NCBI GenBank assembly: GCA_034430115.1
Contig: DAOUFG010000078.1
Location: 10,606-74,605 of the forward strand
DNA length: 64,000 nucleotides
Source: Thermoflexales bacterium
Lineage (GTDB): Bacteria; Chloroflexota; Anaerolineae; J036; Brachytrichaceae
Direction of reading: 5' to 3'
The translations under genes were made by a program, and so were the position numbers. This document shows, piece by piece, positions 25,636-64,000 of the stretch; the stretch's first letter is position 1; every line of letters begins with the position of its first letter. The notes beneath the pieces were generated by a model, which had not been told where the DNA came from, made no database searches, and was given only the letters and a program-made list of their open reading frames with translations.

Positions 25636-25709
25636 CGCGCCTAGCAGGATTTGAACCCACAACCCCTTGATCCGAAGTCAAGTGCTCTATCCAGTTGAGC
25701 TATAGGCGC
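25636..25709 (-). tRNA. tRNA-Arg, anticodon TCG
   Basis: Cloverleaf: acceptor GCGCCTA/TAGGCGC, D-arm GCTC...GAGC, anticodon stem CTTGA/TCAAG with loop CTTCGGA (U33, anticodon UCG), T-loop TTCAAAT. CCA is not encoded. Confidence 0.75.
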
Positions 25710-26060
25710 GAATTGGGCAAATTATACTGCAATTGACATGCCCGCGCTATGCCTGTATGATCTGTAAGCTAACCAGTTAGACAAACTGCCCTGGTCTTCC
25801 AGTGATGAAGTTCAAGTTTGTTGAGAGGTGAGCCAAAACATGAGGACAAGTTGGTGTGGTTGACTGTGTTGCTGGGTCTTGTGCGGCGGAAGCCTTCGAA
25901 CCCCGCCAGGATCGGAAGGTAGCAACGGTAAGGAGTCACTTCTGGGTGTCACAGGGGTGCCTGGCAACACAGTCAACCGCATCAGCACCCGGCCTAAGGT
26001 TCATCTATCCATCAACAAGATAATGGCACATTGCTCGTGGTGCAAACTCGCTAGCTCAAT

Positions 26061-56075: not shown

Positions 56076-58178
56076 ATGCCAAACACGACTTCCTTTGACG
56101 TGGCACCCTTGATCACCCTCGCAGTGGTCATCGTCGTGGCCCTGATTGCGCTTGCGCTGATGCGTTCCATCATGCGCGCATATATCAAGACGCCCGCCAA
56201 CCGCGCCTTCGTGCGCACCGGCGGCCTGTTCCGCAAGCCCAACGACCCGCCGAAGGTGGTGATGAACGGCGGCGCGTGGGTATTCCGCACCATCCACGAG
56301 GTCACCTGGGTGGACCTGGGCACGATGGCGATCGAGATCGAGCGCACCGAGAATAACGCTCTGCTGACCATCGACCCGCAGTATGCAGACATCAAGGCGA
56401 TCTTCTACATCAAAGTGAACCCCACGGTGGAAGGGATCATCGACGCGGCACGCACCATCGGCGGGCGCCAGGTGGACGCCAACGCCGTGAAACAACTGGT
56501 GGATGCCAAGCTGGACGGCGCACTGCGCGACGTGGCCGCTTCGTTCACGTTGATGAGCCTGCACCAGGAACGCGAAAAGTTCATCCAGGAAGTGCAGAAC
56601 CGCCTGAAGACCGACCTGGAAGAGAACGGCTTGATGCTAGAGGCCGTGTCCATCCTCACCCTGCGCGCAGCGCGCCAGGGTTCCTTCGGCACCGACGACG
56701 TGTTCGGCGCACAGGTGGCACGCGCCAACGCGCAGGTGATCCAACAGGCGCAGCGCGAACGGAATGACATCGAGCGGCGCACAGAGATCGAAATAAAGCA
56801 ACGCGATACCGATACGGCCAAACAACGCCTGGACCTGGATCAGCAACTGGCGCTGGCCGCCGCCGCCCAGGAGCGCGAAGTGCGCACCATGCAGGCTGCC
56901 GAGAAAGCACAGGCCGACCAGAAGGTGTTCGAGGAATTGCAGAAATCGGAGATGGCGCGCGTGGCAAAGGAGCGCGCCGTGGCGCTGGCCGAGCTGGAAC
57001 GCGATCAGCAATTGGCGATCCAGAATGAACGGAAACAGCAGGAAGTGGCAAGCGCGGAAGTGACGCGCCGGCAAACGCTGGAATTGGCCGAACAGCAGCG
57101 CCAGATCAACGTGCTGGTGGAGCAGCAGAAGCGCACCGCCTCGGAGAAGGAATTGCTGGTCGTCGCGGCACAACGCATGGATGCCGAACAGGCCGTGAAG
57201 ACGGTGGAAGCCACCCAACAGGCGCAACGCGATGCCCGCATCAAGGTGATCGAAGCAGAACGTGAGGCGCAGGAAGCCATGATCGATCAGAAGAATAAGA
57301 TCGAACTGGAAGCGCTGCGCAAGCAACGCGAAGCCGAAGCGCAGGCCAAGGCGTTGAAAGAGACCGCCGCCGCACAGGCCGAAGCGGCATTGAAGCAGGC
57401 CGAAACGTTGCGCACCCAGGCCGAGGCGGAAATGGAAGCCGAGAAGATGCGCGCCGATGCAGCGCGCGCCTCCGCTTCGGCCACAGGTCTGGCTGAGGCG
57501 GAAGTGGCCAAGGCGAAGGCTGAAGCCGGATTGCGCGAAGCAGAAGCGGTGCGCGTGAAGGGCGTGGCCCAGGCCGAAGCGATCCGCGCCCAGGGGTTGG
57601 CCCAGGCCGAGAGCGATAAGGCGAAGGCTGAGGCGCTGGCCGCCTACGATGGCGTGGCACAGCGCGTGGAATTGATGAAGCTACAACTCGACGCTCAGGT
57701 GCGCATCGAAGTGGCTAAGTCGCAGGCGCTGGGCAGCGCGATGGCCGCGATGAACATCAAGCTGATCGGCGACCCGAACGCCGCTTCGTCACTGCTCAAG
57801 ATGGTGACGCTGGCCGATGGGTTGGGCGATGTGGTCAAAGCGACCCCGCAGCCCCTGCGTGAGATTGGGCAACAGTTGCTCAACAAGGCCACCGGCAACG
57901 CCGATGGCGATGCGCTCCTGAAGGCGAATGACGGGCACGGCGCAAGCCTGAGCGAACTGGCGCTGCTGGTGCCTCAGATTGTGAGCATCACCGAAAAGAC
58001 GCTCGACGTGAGCACGCTGAAGGGCCAGACGGTGGGCGAGGTGCTGGCTACGTTGGTGAAACAGGTCAAGGATGAAGACCGCCCGGCGGTGCAGAAGGCT
58101 CAGCAAGCTGCCGAGGCCCTGCCGATCATCAACAACCTGCCCTTTGAAGATTTCTATCTGCGCGCCACAACGAAGTAG
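56076..58178 (+). CDS. Flotillin-like SPFH/band-7 protein with a long Ala/Glu-rich coiled coil
   Basis: N-terminal TM segment, SPFH domain, then a roughly 300-aa EA-repeat coiled coil, as in FloT/YuaG. Confidence 0.8.
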   Translation: MPNTTSFDVAPLITLAVVIVVALIALALMRSIMRAYIKTPANRAFVRTGGLFRKPNDPPKVVMNGGAWVFRTIHEVTWVDLGTMAIEIERTENNALLTIDPQYADIKAIFYIKVNPTVEGIIDAARTIGGRQVDANAVKQLVDAKLDGALRDVAASFTLMSLHQEREKFIQEVQNRLKTDLEENGLMLEAVSILTLRAARQGSFGTDDVFGAQVARANAQVIQQAQRERNDIERRTEIEIKQRDTDTAKQRLDLDQQLALAAAAQEREVRTMQAAEKAQADQKVFEELQKSEMARVAKERAVALAELERDQQLAIQNERKQQEVASAEVTRRQTLELAEQQRQINVLVEQQKRTASEKELLVVAAQRMDAEQAVKTVEATQQAQRDARIKVIEAEREAQEAMIDQKNKIELEALRKQREAEAQAKALKETAAAQAEAALKQAETLRTQAEAEMEAEKMRADAARASASATGLAEAEVAKAKAEAGLREAEAVRVKGVAQAEAIRAQGLAQAESDKAKAEALAAYDGVAQRVELMKLQLDAQVRIEVAKSQALGSAMAAMNIKLIGDPNAASSLLKMVTLADGLGDVVKATPQPLREIGQQLLNKATGNADGDALLKANDGHGASLSELALLVPQIVSITEKTLDVSTLKGQTVGEVLATLVKQVKDEDRPAVQKAQQAAEALPIINNLPFEDFYLRATTK

Positions 58179-58338
58179 AACGCGGGAGTTGGGGATTGGA
58201 GACTAGAAATTGGAGATGGTCGGTGCCTGGAGACTGGGTTTCGAAGTGAAACCTGCATTCGGGCACTGTGTAGGGGAGCATCACTAGACTGATCAACATT
58301 GGGAACGTAATAATGCGGAAGACACGAGCGAGGTCATC

Positions 58339-58641
58339 TTGCCACATTACAGAATCCAATTTTCGATTGAAGCGCTCGAACACATACGCTTACTGACAGC
58401 AAGACAACGCACATCTATTCTGGATAAGATCGAAAAACAGTTGTCGCATGAGCCGAGAGTGGAGACAAGAAACCGGAAGCTCATGCGACAAAATACACTT
58501 GCCGTTTGGGAATTACGTGCCGGCGATTTACGTGTGTATTATGATGTTCAAGACAAACCGGAAATAGTCGTGATCGTCCGGGCAGTTGGCGTCAAAGACC
58601 ATGAAATAGTGCGTATTGCCGGGAAGGAGTTTAAGCTGTGA
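58339..58641 (+). CDS. RelE/ParE-family toxin-like protein
   Basis: IQFSIEALEHIRLL...KL..Q..LAVWELRAGDLRVYYDVQDKPEIVVIVRAVGVKDHE fits the RelE/ParE fold pattern. Confidence 0.5.
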   Translation: MPHYRIQFSIEALEHIRLLTARQRTSILDKIEKQLSHEPRVETRNRKLMRQNTLAVWELRAGDLRVYYDVQDKPEIVVIVRAVGVKDHEIVRIAGKEFKL

Positions 58642-58988
58642 GTGTAGTCAAAATCGAGAGAAATGAGGCAACAGCCAGCCTGGCCGACTATGTCGGTCAA
58701 GTAGGCGGTAGCCCGATTGTGATCACTGAAAGCGGGAAACCCGTCGCTGTGCTCCTATCCGCCAACGCCGCCGACCTTGAAACGCTGTCCTTAACCTCAA
58801 ATGCGGAGTTCTGGAAGATCATAGAGCGTTCACGCACGCGTGACGAGAACGAAGGCACCATCTCACTAGAGGACGTTCGCCTCATGTTTGCGCACGATGG
58901 GGCCACCACACGCGTTGCCGATGAAGATGCGGATTACCGGGTAGACAACACTCCCGAGCCTCCTGATGAAGCCGGATCAGAAGAATGA
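58638..58988 (+). CDS. Phd/YefM-family antitoxin-like protein (located downstream of the toxin)
   Basis: SPIVITESGKPVAVLLS is the hallmark Phd/YefM N-terminal motif. GTG start overlaps the upstream TGA (GTGA). SD gggaaggag. Confidence 0.55.
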   Translation: MSVVKIERNEATASLADYVGQVGGSPIVITESGKPVAVLLSANAADLETLSLTSNAEFWKIIERSRTRDENEGTISLEDVRLMFAHDGATTRVADEDADYRVDNTPEPPDEAGSEE

Positions 58989-59608
58989 ACTTGCTTAATC
59001 GTCTCTCACTCGCCCTGCGCGCGGCGGCCAGCGACCTCTTTAGCGAAGAAGCACCTGCCCCGCAAGACAAGGCCGCACAGCTCTTGAAAACGGCTCAGCA
59101 GCGCGTGGACAGGCTGAACGAGCAGCTTGCACAGGCCGTTGCGCGCGAGAAGCGCGCCGAACAGGACTGGCGCACCGCCCGCGCCGGGGTTGAGGCGTTG
59201 GAAGCCGAAGTGGATGCAGCGGTGCGCGCGCACCAGGATGAAACGGCCCGTCTGAAGCTGGCGCAGGTGAACCAGGCACAGAACAAGCTGCAACAACTCA
59301 GCGATAGCTGGAAAGCCTATGCCGCTTCCAGCGAGAAGCTGCGCATCGAGATGCAGGACCTGCACACCCAACTGGCAGCGGCGCAACAGCGCTTACAACA
59401 GTTGGGCGAGCGCGAGGGCAATGCCGGCGGCATGGAAACACTGCAACAGGCGCGCCGCGAACAGCGCAACGAAGCGGCCCAGGTACACCAGGAACTTGCG
59501 GCACGCGAAGAGCAAACCGCCCGCCGCGAAGATCACATCGCCGCGCGCGAAGAGCTGGATCAAACGCGCATCGCCGATTTGCTCAAAAAACACGACAAGG
59601 AATCGTGA
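58985..59608 (+). CDS. PspA/IM30/Vipp1-like coiled-coil protein
   Basis: N-terminal amphipathic MNLLNRLSLALRAAASDLFSEE...P resembles the PspA start. The remainder is heptad-repeat coiled coil. ATGA overlap with the upstream gene. Confidence 0.45.
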   Translation: MNLLNRLSLALRAAASDLFSEEAPAPQDKAAQLLKTAQQRVDRLNEQLAQAVAREKRAEQDWRTARAGVEALEAEVDAAVRAHQDETARLKLAQVNQAQNKLQQLSDSWKAYAASSEKLRIEMQDLHTQLAAAQQRLQQLGEREGNAGGMETLQQARREQRNEAAQVHQELAAREEQTARREDHIAAREELDQTRIADLLKKHDKES

Positions 59609-60111
59609 CGACGATGGCCCTGACATCCGAACAACAACACGCGCTGGACGAGCTATTCAATGTAGGAGTAGGGGCGCACGGCTGTGCGCCCTTGACCGGT
59701 GCGCCCCTACCAAACACGCCGGCCGCTGCTGGGCAGGACGGCCTCGCGCCCTACATCGCCAAATTGCAGTCGCTCCTACAGACCAAAGACCATCTGACGC
59801 TGCAAGCGTTGGACATTGCCGAGAACAACCCATTGGACGCCGCGATGGGCTTCCTGGCCGCGGCCTCGCTGGCGTTCTATGCCGCGGAGAAGGGTCACAA
59901 CCCCAAGGTCACAACGTACATCGACGCCTTCTATTACATCTCTACCTGCGCATCCGTCGGCTATGCCGATATCTTTGCCTGCACACAAACCGGGCGCGCC
60001 ATCGCGGCATTGGTGATGATCGTCGGCCCGGCGCTTGCCTCGCACGCGCTCGACCGGCCGGCAGCAAACCTCACACAAAGCGACCCGGTGCCAAAGGATA
60101 AACAGGCGTAA
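59605..60111 (+). CDS. Two-TM KcsA-like ion-channel protein (Ion_trans_2) with a non-canonical filter
   Basis: M1 helix, pore helix plus filter YIDAFYYISTCASVGYADIF (TVGYGD-like), M2 helix GRAIAALVMIVGPALA. GTGA overlap with the upstream gene. Confidence 0.5.
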   Translation: MTTMALTSEQQHALDELFNVGVGAHGCAPLTGAPLPNTPAAAGQDGLAPYIAKLQSLLQTKDHLTLQALDIAENNPLDAAMGFLAAASLAFYAAEKGHNPKVTTYIDAFYYISTCASVGYADIFACTQTGRAIAALVMIVGPALASHALDRPAANLTQSDPVPKDKQA

Positions 60112-60192: not shown

Positions 60193-61968
60193 TCAATTCT
60201 TTGCTTCCAACACCGCCCGGATGCGCCGCACACCCTGGCCGACCGCTTCTTGCTTGACGATTGTGAAGCTGCCCAATTCGCCCGTGTGTGTGACGTGCGG
60301 CCCGCCGCACACTTCCTTGGAAAACCCGTCGATGGTATAGACCTTCACCTGCTCGCCATACTTCTCGCCAAAGAAGGCCAGCGCGCCCGCCGCCAGCGCC
60401 TGATCCAACGCCATCGTCTCGCACGAGACGGGCACATCCCGCCCGATCTGCTCATTCACGATTTGCTGCACCTGATGCAATTGCTCGTCGCTCAGCTTGC
60501 TCGGATAGGAAAAGTCGAAGCGCAGGCGCTCTGCCGTGATGTTCGAACCCTTCTGTTGCACGCTGGGCCCCAGCACCTGCCTGAGCGCCGCGTGCAACAG
60601 GTGCGTGGCCGTGTGCAGGCGGGTGGTTTGTTCGGCATGGTCGGCCAGCCCGCCCTTGAACTTCTGCTCCGTGCCGCGCCGTGAAAGGTCGCGGTGTTCA
60701 AGCTCAAGCGCCTCAAAACGCGCCGCATCCACCTGCAAACCTTGCTCACGCGCCAGTTCGGCGGTCAATGCCAGCGGGAAGCCAAACGTCTCGTATAGGT
60801 TAAAGGCTTCCTCGCCAGGGATGCAGGTGATCTGCTTGCGGCGCAGGCGCTCCGCCACCTTATGATATTCATGCAGGCCGCGTTCCAGCGTGGCTTTGAA
60901 CTTCGTTTCCTCGCGCGCCATCTCCTCGGCGATCACCTGCTTGTTCTGCTCCAAGACAGGGTAGGCCCCGGCGAAGATGCCCAACACCGCCTCCGAAAAG
61001 CCGGCGCAGAAATCCTCCTGGATGTCCAGTTCCCGCCCGTAGCGGATCGCCCGCCGCAACAGGCGACGCACGATGTACCCGGCTTCCACGTTCGATGGCT
61101 TCGCGCCGTCGGCAATGGCAAACGTCGCCGCGCGCAGATGGTCCGCTACGATGCGGAAGGGGCGCGGGTCATCGGCATAGCGCCGGCCGGAGAGGCTTTC
61201 CAGGGCGTCGATCAACGGGCGCAGCGTGTCGATCATGTAAATGTCGTCATATCCATTCAGCACGGCCACGCTGCGATCCAGCCCCATGCCGGTATCCACG
61301 TTAGGCCGCGGCAACCGCTCCAGGTTGCCCGCTGCGGTGCGTTGATAGGTCATGAACACGTTGTTCCAAATCTCAAACCATTTGCCGCAGCCGCACCCCG
61401 GCCGGCAGCCTGGATGATCCGGCCGGCCCGTGTCATAGAAGATTTCCGAATCGGGGCCGCACGGGCCGGTATTGCCCACCGGGCCCCACCAGTTGTCCTC
61501 TTTAGGCAAAAAGTAGATGCGATCCGCCGGCATGCCCAGCGCGCGCCAAAGCTCCGCCGATTCATCGTCGCGCGGGGCATCGGCATCGCCGGCAAACACA
61601 GTCACCGCCAGCCTGTTCAACGAGATGCCCAACACGCGGGTCAGAAACTCATAGCTCCAAGCCAGCGATTCCTGATTGAAATAATCGCCCAACGACCAGT
61701 TGCCCAACATCTCAAAGAAGGTCAGATGCGAGCTATCTCCCACCTCATCGATGTCGCCGGTGCGGAGGCAACGCTGGGCGTTCACCAGCCGGCGGCCCAT
61801 TGGGTGCGCCTCACCCAGCAGGTAGGGCACCAGCGGCTGCATACCGGCGGTGGTGAAGAGAACGGTCGGGTCGTTCTCGGGCAGCAGCGGCGCGGAAGGG
61901 ATGCGCTTGTGCCCGCGTTCTTCAAAAAACCGCTGGTAAATCTCTCTCATCTCTGTGACTTGCATCAT
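60193..61968 (-). CDS. alaS: Alanine--tRNA ligase, compact form (catalytic plus tRNA-recognition plus editing core; no C-Ala domain)
   Basis: Class II motifs (FTTAGMQPLVPY, HLTFFEMLGNWSLGDYF), editing-site HTATHLLH and CGGPH. 591 aa compared with about 870 aa typical. Confidence 0.8.
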   Translation of the reverse strand: MMQVTEMREIYQRFFEERGHKRIPSAPLLPENDPTVLFTTAGMQPLVPYLLGEAHPMGRRLVNAQRCLRTGDIDEVGDSSHLTFFEMLGNWSLGDYFNQESLAWSYEFLTRVLGISLNRLAVTVFAGDADAPRDDESAELWRALGMPADRIYFLPKEDNWWGPVGNTGPCGPDSEIFYDTGRPDHPGCRPGCGCGKWFEIWNNVFMTYQRTAAGNLERLPRPNVDTGMGLDRSVAVLNGYDDIYMIDTLRPLIDALESLSGRRYADDPRPFRIVADHLRAATFAIADGAKPSNVEAGYIVRRLLRRAIRYGRELDIQEDFCAGFSEAVLGIFAGAYPVLEQNKQVIAEEMAREETKFKATLERGLHEYHKVAERLRRKQITCIPGEEAFNLYETFGFPLALTAELAREQGLQVDAARFEALELEHRDLSRRGTEQKFKGGLADHAEQTTRLHTATHLLHAALRQVLGPSVQQKGSNITAERLRFDFSYPSKLSDEQLHQVQQIVNEQIGRDVPVSCETMALDQALAAGALAFFGEKYGEQVKVYTIDGFSKEVCGGPHVTHTGELGSFTIVKQEAVGQGVRRIRAVLEAKN

Positions 61969-61997
61969 CTTGCTCCTTTTACTCCTTACCGTGTACG

Positions 61998-62330
61998 AAA
62001 AACAAAAAAGCTCGTCCTCCGTTTAAAACGGAGGACGAGCTAAAACTCGTGGTACCACCCCACTTCGCCCAGACCTCACAGGCTGGACCTTATGCACCAC
62101 TCGTATGAATGGCGTTGCTCTGTAACAGGAGCACCTGGCAAGTTCTACTGGCCTGTATCAGGCGTTCTTCTTGCGCCTCAAGGGTGGCTATCCCCATGAA
62201 TGACGAGCACCAGGCTCACACCACCGGCTTTGGCATTGCAAAACCAGGCCTGGCTCTCTGCGCTGTCCTTCAAGGTTTGTTCCCTCTCCAAGACTTTGAT
62301 ATGTGTGATTTGAAGCTTATTTTAACAGAA
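61998..62330 (-). ncRNA. Probable T-box riboswitch leader of alaS (5' boundary approximate)
   Basis: The minus strand carries GGGUGGUACCACG (T-box consensus AGGGUGGNACCGCG; the UGGU bulge matches A73 of tRNA-Ala) 10 nt before a strong terminator (gctcgtcctccgtttaaaacggaggacgagc plus UUUUUUGUUUUU), and then SD aaggag plus the alaS ATG. An upstream AGAGAG box is present. Confidence 0.5.
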
Positions 62331-62386
62331 CGAAAAGAAACCCGATCACTGCGAAAGATTGGGTTTCCAGTCATCGCGTCACACGC

Positions 62387-63553
62387 TTATTCGGCATACG
62401 CCTGCTCCCGGTCGATCACGCCTTTCGAAAAGGCCGTTTGCAGCACATACGCGTTGCCGCGCCGCTTGAAGTACAACGCGGCATAGTTACGCTGCTTTGG
62501 CGAGCCGTTCAAAAGATAGTGCCCAATCCGGTTGCTCCCCTCCGGCGTATGCACCAGGCCCAAGGCGAAGTCGGCCAGCTTGAGCGTGGGCAGGTCGTCC
62601 TGCGCCGCCAGCGATTGCATGAGCTGATCGACGTCTTGCGGGCGTCCCTGCGTCCCCAGCGCGACGAACGCGTCGTAGCGCCCCGGGTCGTGCTGCCCTA
62701 CCTGCGCCTCCGTGGAAGCCAGGAAGGGCATGATCAGCCTGACGGTGTCGAGCAGCACGTGCCCCGCCTTCGGGATCATCGCCGTCACCAGGTGCGGCAA
62801 AAGCCGCTGCATACGCTGCGCGATCTTGTGCGCGGGCCGCAGGCTATCCTTCTCGCCCACCAGCAACATCACCGGCATCGTCAAGCGGCGCAATTCCTCA
62901 TCGCTAAAGAGAGGCAGCACGCCCATGCGCGACTTGAAGTGCAACATCATCAGGCGCGCGATCTCATAAGCCTCCGGCGGCGCGGGTAAATCGCCGAACA
63001 TGCTGCCGATCAGGCGCTCCATCCCGCGCCGGCCCATGAAAGACGCCGCCACGGCGCGCAGGAGGAACGACATCCGGTCGGGCGTGACGCCGCCTGGGCA
63101 TAGCAGCACCAGCCGGCCAACACGCTCTGGATACAGCGTCGCGAACTTCAACGCCGTCCAGCCGCCCTGCGAGATGCCGACCAGGGTGGGGCACTGAATC
63201 TGCAATCCATCGAACACGTCCAGCAGCCATTCCGCATACGCCGGGCTTTTCCAGGTAGGACGATTCGGCGCGCTCTTGCCTGCCTCACCCAACAGGTCCG
63301 CCGCATACACGCGATGCTTGCGGCTGTACTTGAGACTATCGGATGCCCAAATCGCAGAGTTGGAGCCGGCACCATGCAACAGGACGAGCGGCGGCGCAGC
63401 AATGTCACCGCAGGCAACCACAAACGTATCTCCGTGGCGGGTGGAGATGGTGCGCGTATCGCATGGCACCGGCCAGCGCGCCAATACAGCATCATACAAG
63501 CCCTGGATGGCTTGCTCACCTGCGGTTGATCGATATAACGTTTGTGTGCTCAT
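62387..63553 (-). CDS. Alpha/beta-hydrolase-fold protein with C-terminal domain of unknown function
   Basis: LLHGAGSN and the nucleophile elbow GISQGG. SD gaggag before the ATG at 63553. Confidence 0.6.
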   Translation of the reverse strand: MSTQTLYRSTAGEQAIQGLYDAVLARWPVPCDTRTISTRHGDTFVVACGDIAAPPLVLLHGAGSNSAIWASDSLKYSRKHRVYAADLLGEAGKSAPNRPTWKSPAYAEWLLDVFDGLQIQCPTLVGISQGGWTALKFATLYPERVGRLVLLCPGGVTPDRMSFLLRAVAASFMGRRGMERLIGSMFGDLPAPPEAYEIARLMMLHFKSRMGVLPLFSDEELRRLTMPVMLLVGEKDSLRPAHKIAQRMQRLLPHLVTAMIPKAGHVLLDTVRLIMPFLASTEAQVGQHDPGRYDAFVALGTQGRPQDVDQLMQSLAAQDDLPTLKLADFALGLVHTPEGSNRIGHYLLNGSPKQRNYAALYFKRRGNAYVLQTAFSKGVIDREQAYAE

Positions 63554-63912: not shown

Positions 63913-64000
63913 CCCAGGCAATGACCTACTCTCGCACGCAGTCACCCACGTACTACCATCGGCGCTGACGAGCTTAACGACCGGGTTCGGGATGGGACCG
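63913..64000 (-). rRNA. rrf: 5S rRNA, 3' portion (the gene continues beyond the window edge)
   Basis: Minus strand reads ...CCGAACCCGGTCGTTAAGCTCGTCAGCGCCGATGGTAGTACGTGGG...GCGAGAGTAGGTCATTGCCTGGGAT, matching the universally conserved 5S 3' half (CGCCGATGGTAGT ... GCGAGAGTAGG). Confidence 0.8.

What the first reader, a model, noticed from the sequence alone, without database searches (positions are those of the whole stretch)
61998..62330. T-box riboswitch-like leader upstream of alaS
On the minus strand, the sequence GGGUGGUACCACG (T-box consensus AGGGUGGNACCGCG, with a UGGU bulge complementary to the ACCA end of tRNA-Ala with A73) lies 10 nt upstream of a 14-bp perfect terminator hairpin plus U-tract. 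This is followed within 30 nt by SD aaggag and the alaS ATG. About 250 nt of structured leader with an AGAGAG box and GCC triplets (candidate Ala specifier) precedes it. A separate hairpin (about 62343-62371) terminates the upstream hydrolase gene, so this terminator is dedicated to the alaS leader.
Basis: partly seen in the sequence, partly recalled or inferred. Interest (0 to 1): 0.55.

Follow-up and report, generated by a model that had tools for sequence, protein, structure and literature searches.

The report
Alanine T-box leader before alaS
This is a genuine T-box riboswitch that senses uncharged alanine tRNA and lets transcription continue into the alanyl-tRNA synthetase gene; the mechanism is textbook, here in an uncultured Chloroflexi bacterium where standard annotation thresholds miss it.

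Summary
On the minus strand, 62299..61997 is a complete class I (transcriptional) T-box leader. It has Stem I with a K-turn, a specifier loop presenting GCC (62188..62186) followed by A, an AGAGA bulge and a GGUGUGA distal motif. It also has Stem II, the IIA/B pseudoknot with F-box, Stem III, the T-box sequence with a UGGUACC bulge, and an antiterminator that competes with a 14-15 bp terminator plus U-tract.

Rfam's T-box model matches end to end (52.3 bits, E=1.3e-10) but below the gathering score of 93, so a default scan reports nothing. Ten non-identical Chloroflexi loci carry the same leader before the orthologous gene, all below threshold and all with GCC and UGGU. On an 8-sequence alignment, 91.8% of cells pair (about 41% in slid controls) and 34 of 59 pairs show compensatory changes. 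One divergent relative uses GCA, also an Ala codon.

The regulated gene is the short (~590 aa) AlaRS type that lacks the C-Ala domain. Differences from the canonical leader are hairpin insertions and GCC rather than the Firmicute-preferred GCU.

Verdict: an ordinary mechanism and a new member of a known kind. tRNA binding and the cognate tRNA were not testable.

The parts
62319..62327 (-). Candidate extended -10 promoter TGTTAAAAT for the leader (inference only)
   Evidence: Read. Comparable TGnTAnAnT/TATAAT elements sit 19-40 nt upstream of Stem I in L001, L003, L004 and L006. The sigma-70 scan found no two-hexamer promoter on this strand.
62176..62293 (-). Stem I: K-turn base, specifier internal loop, AG bulge, upper stem and distal loop
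   Evidence: CM alignment. RNAalifold recovers it independently. Helices 1-5 are 83-100% paired with compensatory changes. Coordinates.
62186..62188 (-). Specifier codon GCC (Ala), followed by A62185
   Evidence: Aligned to the specifier columns of RF00230. GCC is invariant in 11 Chloroflexi-type leaders, and GCA occurs in the divergent L141.
62255..62259 (-). AG bulge AGAGA (one of the two T-loop motifs that dock the tRNA elbow)
   Evidence: AG[A/C]GA is conserved in all aligned leaders.
62216..62247 (-). Distal loop: a lineage-specific inserted hairpin (about 24 nt) followed by the conserved GGUGUGA motif (62222..62216)
   Evidence: CM shows a 30-nt insertion. The insert folds as a hairpin stacked on the upper stem in the window, L002 and L003, leaving GGUGNNA unpaired.
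62138..62174 (-). Stem II with GAA/AGUAG internal loop
   Evidence: helices 6-7. Coordinates.
62117..62137 (-). Stem IIA/B pseudoknot: IIA 62137..62126; loop GCUC 62132..62129 pairs with GAGC 62120..62117; F-box CCUGUUA 62129..62123
   Evidence: Helices 8 and 9. Three of the 4 pseudoknot pairs show compensatory changes (for example CG:4 UA:4).
62095..62114 (-). Extra hairpin in the IIA/B-Stem III linker (CGCCA...UGGUG), absent from the Rfam consensus
   Evidence: RNAalifold. Helix 10: 97.5% paired, 4 of 5 pairs compensatory. It is expanded in L002, L004, L080 and L085, and absent in L083.
62067..62088 (-). Stem III
   Evidence: Helix 11: all 6 pairs show compensatory changes.
62048..62065 (-). 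T-box sequence AAGUGGGGUGGUACCACG; 7-nt bulge UGGUACC at 62057..62051, of which UGGU is complementary to the ACCA 3' end of the tRNA
   Evidence: UGGU is present in all 12 leaders examined.
62031..62061 (-). Antiterminator (helices A1 and A2 flanking the bulge), -6.6 kcal/mol on its own
   Evidence: Helices 12-13 (95-100% paired, 4 pairs compensatory). Energy.
61997..62041 (-). Intrinsic terminator (14-15 bp, -27.2 kcal/mol) plus U-tract; its 5' arm 62040..62031 is also the 3' arm of the antiterminator
   Evidence: A terminator plus U-tract is present in all homologous leaders.
61973..61987 (-). Two AAGGAG Shine-Dalgarno sequences downstream of the terminator, not sequestered
60193..61968 (-). 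alaS, short-type alanine--tRNA ligase (591 aa from the first ATG, 590 aa from ATG 61965), lacking the C-Ala domain
   Evidence: Pfam tRNA-synt_2c 6-456 and tRNA_SAD 541-583. NCBIfam NF002436 at 853.5 bits over the full length. The 590-aa product is on record in JGI metagenomes.
62337..62367 (-). Terminator-like hairpin of the upstream alpha/beta-hydrolase gene, which separates it from the leader
   Evidence: Hydrolase domains.

Best explanation
The 62299..61997 minus-strand segment is a class I (transcription-attenuation) T-box riboswitch specific for tRNA-Ala, and it controls the downstream alaS gene. Transcription probably starts a few bases after an extended -10 element near 62319. Stem I folds first and captures tRNA-Ala in two ways: codon-anticodon pairing between the specifier GCC (62188..62186) and anticodon GGC, and stacking of the tRNA elbow on the platform formed by the AGAGA bulge and the GGUGUGA distal motif. 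If the tRNA is uncharged, its free 3' ACCA end pairs with UGGU in the T-box bulge (62057..62054). This stabilises the weak antiterminator (62061..62031), stops the 14-15 bp terminator (62041..62009) from forming, and RNA polymerase reads into alaS. If the tRNA is charged, the amino acid blocks this contact, the much more stable terminator forms and transcription stops at the U-tract. The result is negative feedback of Ala-tRNA charging on AlaRS synthesis. Shown here: the sequence and structure anatomy, its conservation and covariation, the mutually exclusive helices, and the identity of the regulated gene. Inferred from established knowledge of T-box leaders: tRNA binding, charge discrimination, and the direction of regulation.
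For: RF00230 aligns end to end (model 1-219) at 52.3 bits, E=1.3e-10, with GCC then A in the specifier columns and GGUGGUACCACG in the T-box columns. The terminator is detected independently, and its 5' arm overlaps the antiterminator 3' arm (-27.2 versus -6.6 kcal/mol). The same leader lies 40-90 nt upstream of the orthologous short alaS in all 8 Chloroflexi genomes among the best 80 genome loci, and in 2 further metagenome contigs. It is absent upstream of the short alaS in the 72 non-Chloroflexi genome loci. RNAalifold, without any prior, recovers Stem I with the specifier internal loop, Stem II, the pseudoknot pairing, Stem III and the terminator, with 34 of 61 pairs compensatory. For the explicit canonical antiterminator-form structure, 91.8% of cells pair against 38-42% when partners are slid, 34 of 59 pairs have double changes against 8-11, and 0 of 500 shuffles reach any measure. 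The specifier triplet is GCC in 11 of 11 Chloroflexi-type leaders while its flanking bases vary (preceding A/C/G, following A/C/G). A divergent T-box (103.5 bits) upstream of another short alaS has GCA, so only Ala codons occur there. UGGU is invariant. The downstream gene is a bona fide alanine--tRNA ligase.
Against: The CM score is below Rfam's gathering threshold (52.3 against 93), so a default scan of the window reports no T-box. Single-sequence MFE folding does not reproduce the canonical Stem I register, and one MFE fold pairs the CC of the specifier. The S-turn of the specifier loop is degenerate (AACAAA/GAUA instead of AGUA/GAA), and the base after the codon is not a conserved purine in the relatives (A, C or G). 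No tRNA-Ala gene is available in the window or in the loci, so anticodon GGC and discriminator A73 are assumed rather than shown. There are no expression data. The promoter is only a consensus-like match.
Confidence: 0.9

Rival explanations
1. A relic T-box: the leader descends from a T-box but no longer responds to tRNA (degenerate S-turn, inserted hairpins), and acts as a constitutive partial terminator or simply as a 5' UTR.
For: Sub-threshold CM score. A non-canonical specifier-loop S-turn and a 24-nt insertion in the distal loop.
Against: Every functional element is kept across leaders whose AlaRS proteins are only 53-72% identical. These include the GCC codon, the UGGU bulge, the AG bulge, the GGUGNNA motif, the pseudoknot and the antiterminator/terminator overlap. 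Helices are maintained by compensatory changes. That pattern indicates purifying selection on the tRNA-sensing structure. The insertions sit at positions that leave the conserved motifs intact.
Confidence: 0.05
2. A T-box of another specificity, read in a different frame of the specifier loop: AGC (Ser) or CCA (Pro) in AUAGCCACCC.
For: The window's loop contains the overlapping triplets AGC and CCA. Bacterial tRNA-Pro generally also has A73 (general knowledge, not tested here).
Against: Only GCC is conserved. The base before it is A, C or G, and the base after it is A, C or G in the relatives, so AGC and CCA are each present in a minority. The CM register puts GCC in the specifier columns. The regulated gene is alaS in every case. 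From general knowledge, tRNA-Ser usually has G73, which would call for UGGC.
Confidence: 0.02
3. A plain intrinsic terminator or protein-dependent attenuator, with a fortuitous match to the T-box 13-mer.
For: The 13-mer pattern with one mismatch occurs at least once in 12 of 100 shuffles of the window. There is no hit at the Rfam gathering threshold.
Against: A full-length CM alignment with E=1.3e-10, conservation of the entire roughly 300-nt architecture in 10 other loci, and strong covariation in all 13 helices.
Confidence: 0.01
4. A translational (class II-like) T-box that sequesters the Shine-Dalgarno sequence rather than terminating transcription.
For: T-boxes outside Firmicutes, such as actinobacterial ileS, often act on translation (PMC11297988; TBDB paper PMC7778990).
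Against: The alternative helix is a GC-rich 14-15 bp hairpin followed by U6GU5, a canonical intrinsic terminator. Both SD copies lie 22-31 nt downstream of it and are unpaired in the folds. Stem I is full length with Stem II and the pseudoknot, unlike the truncated class II leaders. U-tracts follow the hairpin in all relatives.
Confidence: 0.02

Closest known systems
Firmicute alaS T-box leaders (Ala-specific members of Rfam RF00230, for example in Lactobacillus and Bacillus; listed in RegPrecise, PMC3766115 supplementary file 2)
   Same: Same regulated function (alaS), same amino-acid specificity, and the same class I architecture: Stem I with K-turn, specifier loop, AG bulge and distal loop; Stem II; IIA/B pseudoknot; Stem III; antiterminator/terminator switch; UGGU bulge.
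   Different: The host is an uncultured Chloroflexi (Anaerolineae-like) bacterium. The specifier is GCC, whereas TBDB reports that Ala T-boxes prefer 3'-U codons (bioRxiv 10.1101/2020.06.17.157016). There is a hairpin inserted in the Stem I distal loop and an extra hairpin in the IIA/B-III linker. The specifier-loop S-turn is degenerate. The CM score is below the Rfam cut-off. The gene controlled is the short AlaRS without C-Ala.
Known Chloroflexi T-boxes (glyS, ileS, thrS, serS, trpS/trpB, valS, pheST in Herpetosiphon, Chloroflexus and Roseiflexus; ileS and trp genes in Dehalococcoides)
   Same: Same phylum and the same riboswitch class. These papers already establish that T-boxes occur in Chloroflexi (PMC3766115, PMC2494555).
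   Different: Neither of the two catalogues I could read lists an Ala-specific T-box or alaS for Chloroflexi. In PMC3766115 the Ala column is empty for all five Chloroflexi genomes, and PMC2494555 names only ileS and two trp genes for the two Dehalococcoides genomes. Here alaS leaders are found in Anaerolineae, Chloroflexia and Roseiflexaceae MAGs.
Staphylococcal glyS T-box with the lineage-specific stem Sa insertion (PMC9177973)
   Same: An otherwise canonical transcriptional T-box that carries a lineage-specific extra stem.
   Different: Stem Sa lies in the terminator/antiterminator domain. Here the extra hairpins lie in the Stem I distal loop, the Stem II apex (L083) and the IIA/B-III linker, and no functional role is known for them.
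Actinobacterial ileS translational T-box (class II)
   Same: Senses tRNA through a specifier and a UGGN bulge, in a non-Firmicute phylum.
   Different: Class II leaders have a truncated Stem I and sequester the SD. This one has a full Stem I, Stem II and pseudoknot, plus an intrinsic terminator.

Membership tests
T-box leader (Rfam RF00230, class I transcriptional) | Conserved T-box sequence forming an antiterminator with a 7-nt bulge 5'-UGGNACC-3' | tested here: met
   AAGUGGGGUGGUACCACG at 62065..62048, with bulge UGGUACC. Antiterminator helices are 95-100% paired with compensatory changes.
T-box leader (Rfam RF00230, class I transcriptional) | Mutually exclusive intrinsic terminator that shares a strand with the antiterminator, followed by a U-tract | tested here: met
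   The terminator at 62041..62009 shares 62040..62031 with the antiterminator. Energies are -27.2 versus -6.6 kcal/mol. The U-tract runs to 61997. Conserved in all relatives.
T-box leader (Rfam RF00230, class I transcriptional) | Stem I specifier loop presenting a codon that matches the amino acid of the regulated gene | tested here: met
   GCC at 62188..62186 falls in the specifier columns. It is invariant in 11 leaders, with GCA in L141, and the gene is alaS.
T-box leader (Rfam RF00230, class I transcriptional) | Conserved purine 3' of the specifier and an S-turn (AGUA/GAA) in the specifier loop | tested here: inconclusive
   The window has A after GCC, but the relatives have A, C or G. The window's loop is AACAAA/GAUA rather than AGUA/GAA. 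L059, L080 and L085 keep GAA.
T-box leader (Rfam RF00230, class I transcriptional) | K-turn (GA motif) at the base of Stem I | tested here: met
   G12 and A13 on the 5' side and GAG on the 3' side are invariant in alignment A1, and the flanking pairs are kept.
T-box leader (Rfam RF00230, class I transcriptional) | AG bulge and distal-loop motifs (interdigitated T-loops that form the tRNA-elbow platform) | tested here: met
   AGAGA at 62259..62255 and GGUGUGA at 62222..62216 match the model consensus AGAGA and GGUGaaA. A 24-nt hairpin is inserted 5' of the GGUG motif. The three-dimensional platform itself was not tested.
T-box leader (Rfam RF00230, class I transcriptional) | Stem II, Stem IIA/B pseudoknot with F-box (CCGUUA), and Stem III | tested here: met
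   Helices 6-9 and 11. Three of the 4 pseudoknot pairs and all 6 Stem III pairs show compensatory changes. F-box CCUGUUA is at 62129..62123.
T-box leader (Rfam RF00230, class I transcriptional) | Operational criterion (a curation cut-off, not a biological feature): covariance-model score at or above Rfam's gathering score | tested here: not met
   52.3 bits against a gathering score of 93. The ten related Chloroflexi leaders score 29.2-74.1 bits, all below the cut-off. E-values of 1e-7 to 1e-14 and full-length alignments show that the shortfall comes from insertions and divergence rather than from missing elements.
T-box leader (Rfam RF00230, class I transcriptional) | Binds cognate uncharged tRNA; the bulge N covaries with the tRNA discriminator (UGGU with A73) and the specifier pairs with the anticodon (GCC with GGC) | not testable with these tools
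   There is no tRNA-Ala gene in the window (only tRNA-Arg) or in 13 related loci. A73 in bacterial tRNA-Ala is taken from general knowledge.
Short-type alanine--tRNA ligase (NCBIfam NF002436 / PRK01584) | Full-length match above the curated cut-off; catalytic, tRNA-recognition and editing domains but no C-Ala | tested here: met
   853.5 bits (cut-off 529), residues 1-588 against profile positions 1-594 of 595. Pfam shows no DHHA1/C-Ala domain. The HxxxH and CxxxH editing motifs are visible in the translation.

The most novel reading that the evidence does not exclude
These leaders form a Chloroflexi-specific clade of Ala T-boxes that the T-box regulon catalogues I could read do not list and that default Rfam annotation cannot see: all 11 Chloroflexi-type leaders score 29-74 bits against a gathering score of 93. 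The clade is marked by variable hairpin expansions in the Stem I distal loop, the Stem II apex and the IIA/B-III linker, by GCC instead of GCU, and by control of the C-Ala-less short AlaRS. In four of the leaders (window, L002, L003, L085) the distal 'loop' T-loop motif appears to have become a one-sided internal bulge beneath an extension hairpin. That would be a structural variant of the tRNA-elbow platform.
Probability: 0.45. Interest if true: 0.3.

Novelty: new member of a known kind. Interest (0 to 1): 0.22.

Why it matters
There are three modest points. First, it assigns a concrete regulatory mechanism (feedback by uncharged tRNA-Ala) to alaS in an uncultured Anaerolineae-like lineage. 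Second, it shows that Rfam's current T-box gathering score misses a whole conserved set of Chloroflexi leaders, so T-box regulons in this phylum are probably under-counted. The published Chloroflexi tables I could read list no Ala T-box. Third, the naturally occurring hairpin insertions next to the tRNA-elbow platform and in the linker are free mutational data on which parts of a T-box tolerate expansion. None of this changes how T-boxes are understood to work.

Tried and rejected
A whole-window Rfam scan at gathering thresholds found no T-box. The hit only appeared with E-value thresholds on the local region.

Single-sequence MFE folds of the leader and of Stem I gave non-canonical registers. 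A fold forced onto the alignment-derived pairs scored poorly (-27.9 against -42.4 kcal/mol) because it enforced a non-pairing A-A column. I therefore rest the structure on the CM alignment and on covariation, not on MFE.

I looked for a tRNA-Ala gene in the window and in 13 related loci to test A73 and anticodon GGC, and found none.

The exact-sequence look-up with the first ATG found nothing. The second ATG gave the 590-aa product on JGI metagenome contigs.

Vitreschak et al. 2008 and Gutierrez-Preciado et al. 2009, the two most detailed T-box surveys, are not held in the library. So I cannot exclude that a Chloroflexi alaS T-box is listed there.

I considered and rejected alternative specifier frames (AGC, CCA), SD sequestration, a chance match and a relic element (see rival explanations).

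Two helper scripts stopped on regex failures after partial output, and I used only the lines they printed.

I did not build a custom covariance model, because a model of about 300 positions would exceed the calibration limit. An nhmmer profile of alignment A1 served instead.

Full report
**Observation.**
- GGGUGGUACCACG lies at 62060..62048 and is unique in the window.
- A perfect 14-bp hairpin lies at 62040..62010. It is 15 bp with the closing A-U pair, and it is followed by UUUUUUGUUUUU.
- There are two AAGGAG Shine-Dalgarno sequences, then ATG codons at 61968 and 61965.
- An AGAGA box and several GCC triplets lie upstream.
- A separate hairpin at 62367..62337 sits just after the stop codon of the upstream gene. 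That gene is an alpha/beta hydrolase.

There are two small corrections. The spacer between the T-box 13-mer and the terminator stem is 7 nt, not 10. The two SD copies are 22 and 31 nt after the stem.

A scan of the whole window at Rfam's gathering thresholds finds only a tRNA-Arg, the SRP RNA and a partial 5S rRNA, and no T-box. Re-scanning 61900..62450 with E-value thresholds gives RF00230 on the minus strand at 62299..62028. The alignment covers the model end to end (1-219 of 219) at 52.3 bits, E=1.3e-10, against a gathering score of 93. It places UGGAGAGGG...CCCUUGAGG as the K-turn and lower Stem I, AGAGA as the AG bulge, GCC followed by A in the specifier columns, CCUGUUA as the F-box, and GGGGUGGUACCACGAG...CUCGUCCUC as the antiterminator. 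It also reports a 30-nt insertion in the distal loop and a long insertion in the linker before Stem III. So the hit is statistically strong but falls under the curated cut-off.

**The regulated gene.** ORF 61968..60193 is an alanine--tRNA ligase (Pfam tRNA-synt_2c and tRNA_SAD), but it is only 590-591 aa long. It matches NCBIfam NF002436, a 595-position equivalog for alanine--tRNA ligase, over its whole length at 853.5 bits. The editing-site HxxxH and CxxxH motifs are present, and there is no C-Ala domain. The next genes are convergent on the plus strand, so no C-terminal piece is encoded separately nearby. The 590-aa product is on record on JGI metagenome contigs with the same gene neighbourhood. 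The window therefore comes from an uncultured organism.

**Comparative evidence.** A genome-collection scan with the protein returned 80 loci. The closest, at 63-72% identity, are Anaerolineae/Chloroflexi MAGs (L001-L006). Two more Chloroflexi appear, a Roseiflexaceae MAG (L059) and a Chloroflexia MAG (L080). The remaining 72 are Spirochaetes, Verrucomicrobia, Lentisphaerae, CPR bacteria and several archaeal groups. All encode the same ~590-aa form.

Rfam's T-box model hits seven of the eight Chloroflexi loci immediately upstream of alaS, full length, at 48.9-74.1 bits. The eighth, L002, has the T-box core and terminator but carries a ~110-nt insertion, and reaches only 29.2 bits. An nhmmer profile of the leaders and a regex for the T-box core find the element upstream of alaS in all Chloroflexi loci and in none of the other 72. 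The metagenome scan added two more Chloroflexi-type leaders, L083 (64.8 bits) and L085 (62.3 bits). It also added a divergent T-box in L141 (103.5 bits, above threshold) upstream of another short alaS.

**Structure and covariation.** I aligned eight leaders (alignment A1, 356 columns, mean column identity 58%). Without any prior, RNAalifold recovers:
- Stem I with its specifier internal loop and AG bulge;
- Stem II;
- the IIB pseudoknot pairing;
- an additional hairpin between the pseudoknot and Stem III;
- Stem III;
- the terminator.

Of the 61 predicted pairs, 34 show compensatory changes.

I then wrote the canonical antiterminator-form T-box structure explicitly (59 pairs, 13 helices, pseudoknot in square brackets) and counted pairs. 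91.8% of cells form standard pairs, against 38-42% when the 3' partners are slid by 1-3 columns. 34 pairs have changes on both sides, against 8-11 in the slid controls. The covariation score is 0.487 against 0.08-0.13, and no shuffle out of 500 reaches any observed measure. Every helix contributes, including the pseudoknot (3 of 4 pairs compensatory), Stem III (6 of 6) and both antiterminator helices.

**Specificity.** The triplet in the specifier columns is GCC in the window and in all ten non-identical Chloroflexi leaders, while the bases on either side vary. The overlapping frames AGC and CCA are therefore not conserved. The divergent L141 leader has GCA, another alanine codon. The bulge reads UGGU in all twelve leaders, which by the established T-box rule (UGGN pairs with NCCA) calls for a tRNA with discriminator A73. 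From general knowledge, that is the discriminator of bacterial tRNA-Ala. I could not check the tRNA itself. The window has only tRNA-Arg, and 13 related loci hold no tRNA genes.

**Mechanism.** The antiterminator (62061..62031, -6.6 kcal/mol in the canonical pairing) and the terminator (62041..62009, -27.2 kcal/mol) share 62040..62031. The terminator therefore wins unless something stabilises the antiterminator. In T-box leaders that something is the uncharged 3' end of the cognate tRNA, held in place by Stem I. The SD sequences lie downstream of the terminator and are unpaired. Control is therefore at transcription, not translation. An extended -10-like TGTTAAAAT (62327..62319) is the likely promoter, and similar elements precede the relatives, but this is inference only.

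**How it differs from the textbook leader.**
- *Distal-loop insertion.* A hairpin of about 24 nt is inserted in the Stem I distal loop, 5' of the conserved GGUGNNA motif. The window, L002 and L003 have unrelated sequences at this site that each fold into a hairpin. L085 has a 30-nt insertion at the same place.
- *Linker hairpin.* A hairpin in the IIA/B-III linker is conserved in the eight aligned leaders (helix 10, 97.5% paired, 4 of 5 pairs compensatory). It is expanded in L002, L004, L080 and L085 and absent in L083, which instead has a large Stem II insertion.
- *Specifier loop.* The S-turn is degenerate, and the base after the codon is not a conserved purine.
- *Codon choice.* The codon is GCC, whereas TBDB reports a preference for 3'-U specifiers in Ala T-boxes.

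These features plausibly explain the sub-threshold CM scores.

**What is already known.** T-boxes upstream of alaS are common in Firmicutes, and T-boxes are documented in Chloroflexi (PMC2494555, PMC3766115). The RegPrecise table for five Chloroflexi genomes lists Gly, Ile, Ser, Thr, Trp, Val and Phe T-boxes but nothing for Ala. Wels et al. list only ileS and trp genes for Dehalococcoides. The two most detailed surveys are not in the library. I therefore cannot rule out an earlier mention of a Chloroflexi alaS T-box.

**Verdict.** It is a new member of a well-known riboswitch family working by the known mechanism, with minor lineage-specific decorations and an annotation blind spot. Interest is low to modest.

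Noticed in passing
window 60193-61968 (-): The alaS here is the short (~590 aa) AlaRS type: catalytic, tRNA-recognition and a compact AlaX-like editing domain, with no C-Ala. It matches NCBIfam NF002436 over its full length. The same form occurs in Chloroflexi, Spirochaetes, Verrucomicrobia, Lentisphaerae, CPR bacteria and DPANN/Thorarchaeota/Methanosarcinales MAGs. Recent AlaRS papers state that the four-domain prototype is kept throughout biology (PMC10036535). Whether these genomes also hold a full-length alaS was not testable.
   Followed up: partly
window 63913-64000 (-): The 3' part of a 5S rRNA runs off the window end (61.9 bits). An rRNA operon therefore lies immediately upstream of the hydrolase and alaS on the same strand.
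   Followed up: no
window 25636-25709 (-) and 25870-25969 (+): tRNA-Arg(TCG) and the small SRP RNA lie 160 nt apart on opposite strands. They are the only other Rfam gathering-level hits in the window.
   Followed up: no
L059, minus strand, about 100 nt from the 3' end of the locus as held: A second T-box-like core (GCGGUGGCACCACGAG) followed by a GC-rich hairpin and a U-rich tail, in the Roseiflexaceae MAG. The bulge is UGGC (discriminator G73), so it belongs to a different gene on the opposite strand from alaS.
   Followed up: no
L141 58-308 and 701: A T-box scoring above the Rfam threshold (103.5 bits), with specifier GCA and a UGGU bulge, lies about 390 nt upstream of the short alaS start. 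There is no convincing ORF in between, so the post-terminator leader is unusually long.
   Followed up: partly
L001 about 2630-2700: Heptamer tandem repeats (CTTGACA x3, then CTGATAA/CTGTTAA/CCGATAA x6) sit directly upstream of the TATAAT promoter of the alaS leader in an Anaerolineaceae MAG.
   Followed up: no
window 56076-60111 (+): A translationally coupled plus-strand operon is convergent with alaS. It encodes a Band_7 protein (700 aa), a 100-aa ORF, a PhdYeFM-antitoxin-like protein (116 aa), PspA/IM30 (207 aa) and an Ion_trans_2 channel protein (165-168 aa). The arrangement is conserved on the JGI contigs.
   Followed up: no
L083 440-500; L002 about 2800-2910: Large lineage-specific insertions occur in otherwise conserved leaders: about 55 nt in the Stem II apex of L083, and about 110 nt in the IIA/B-III linker of L002. 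These two are among the leaders whose Rfam scores fall below threshold (64.8 and 29.2 bits).
   Followed up: partly
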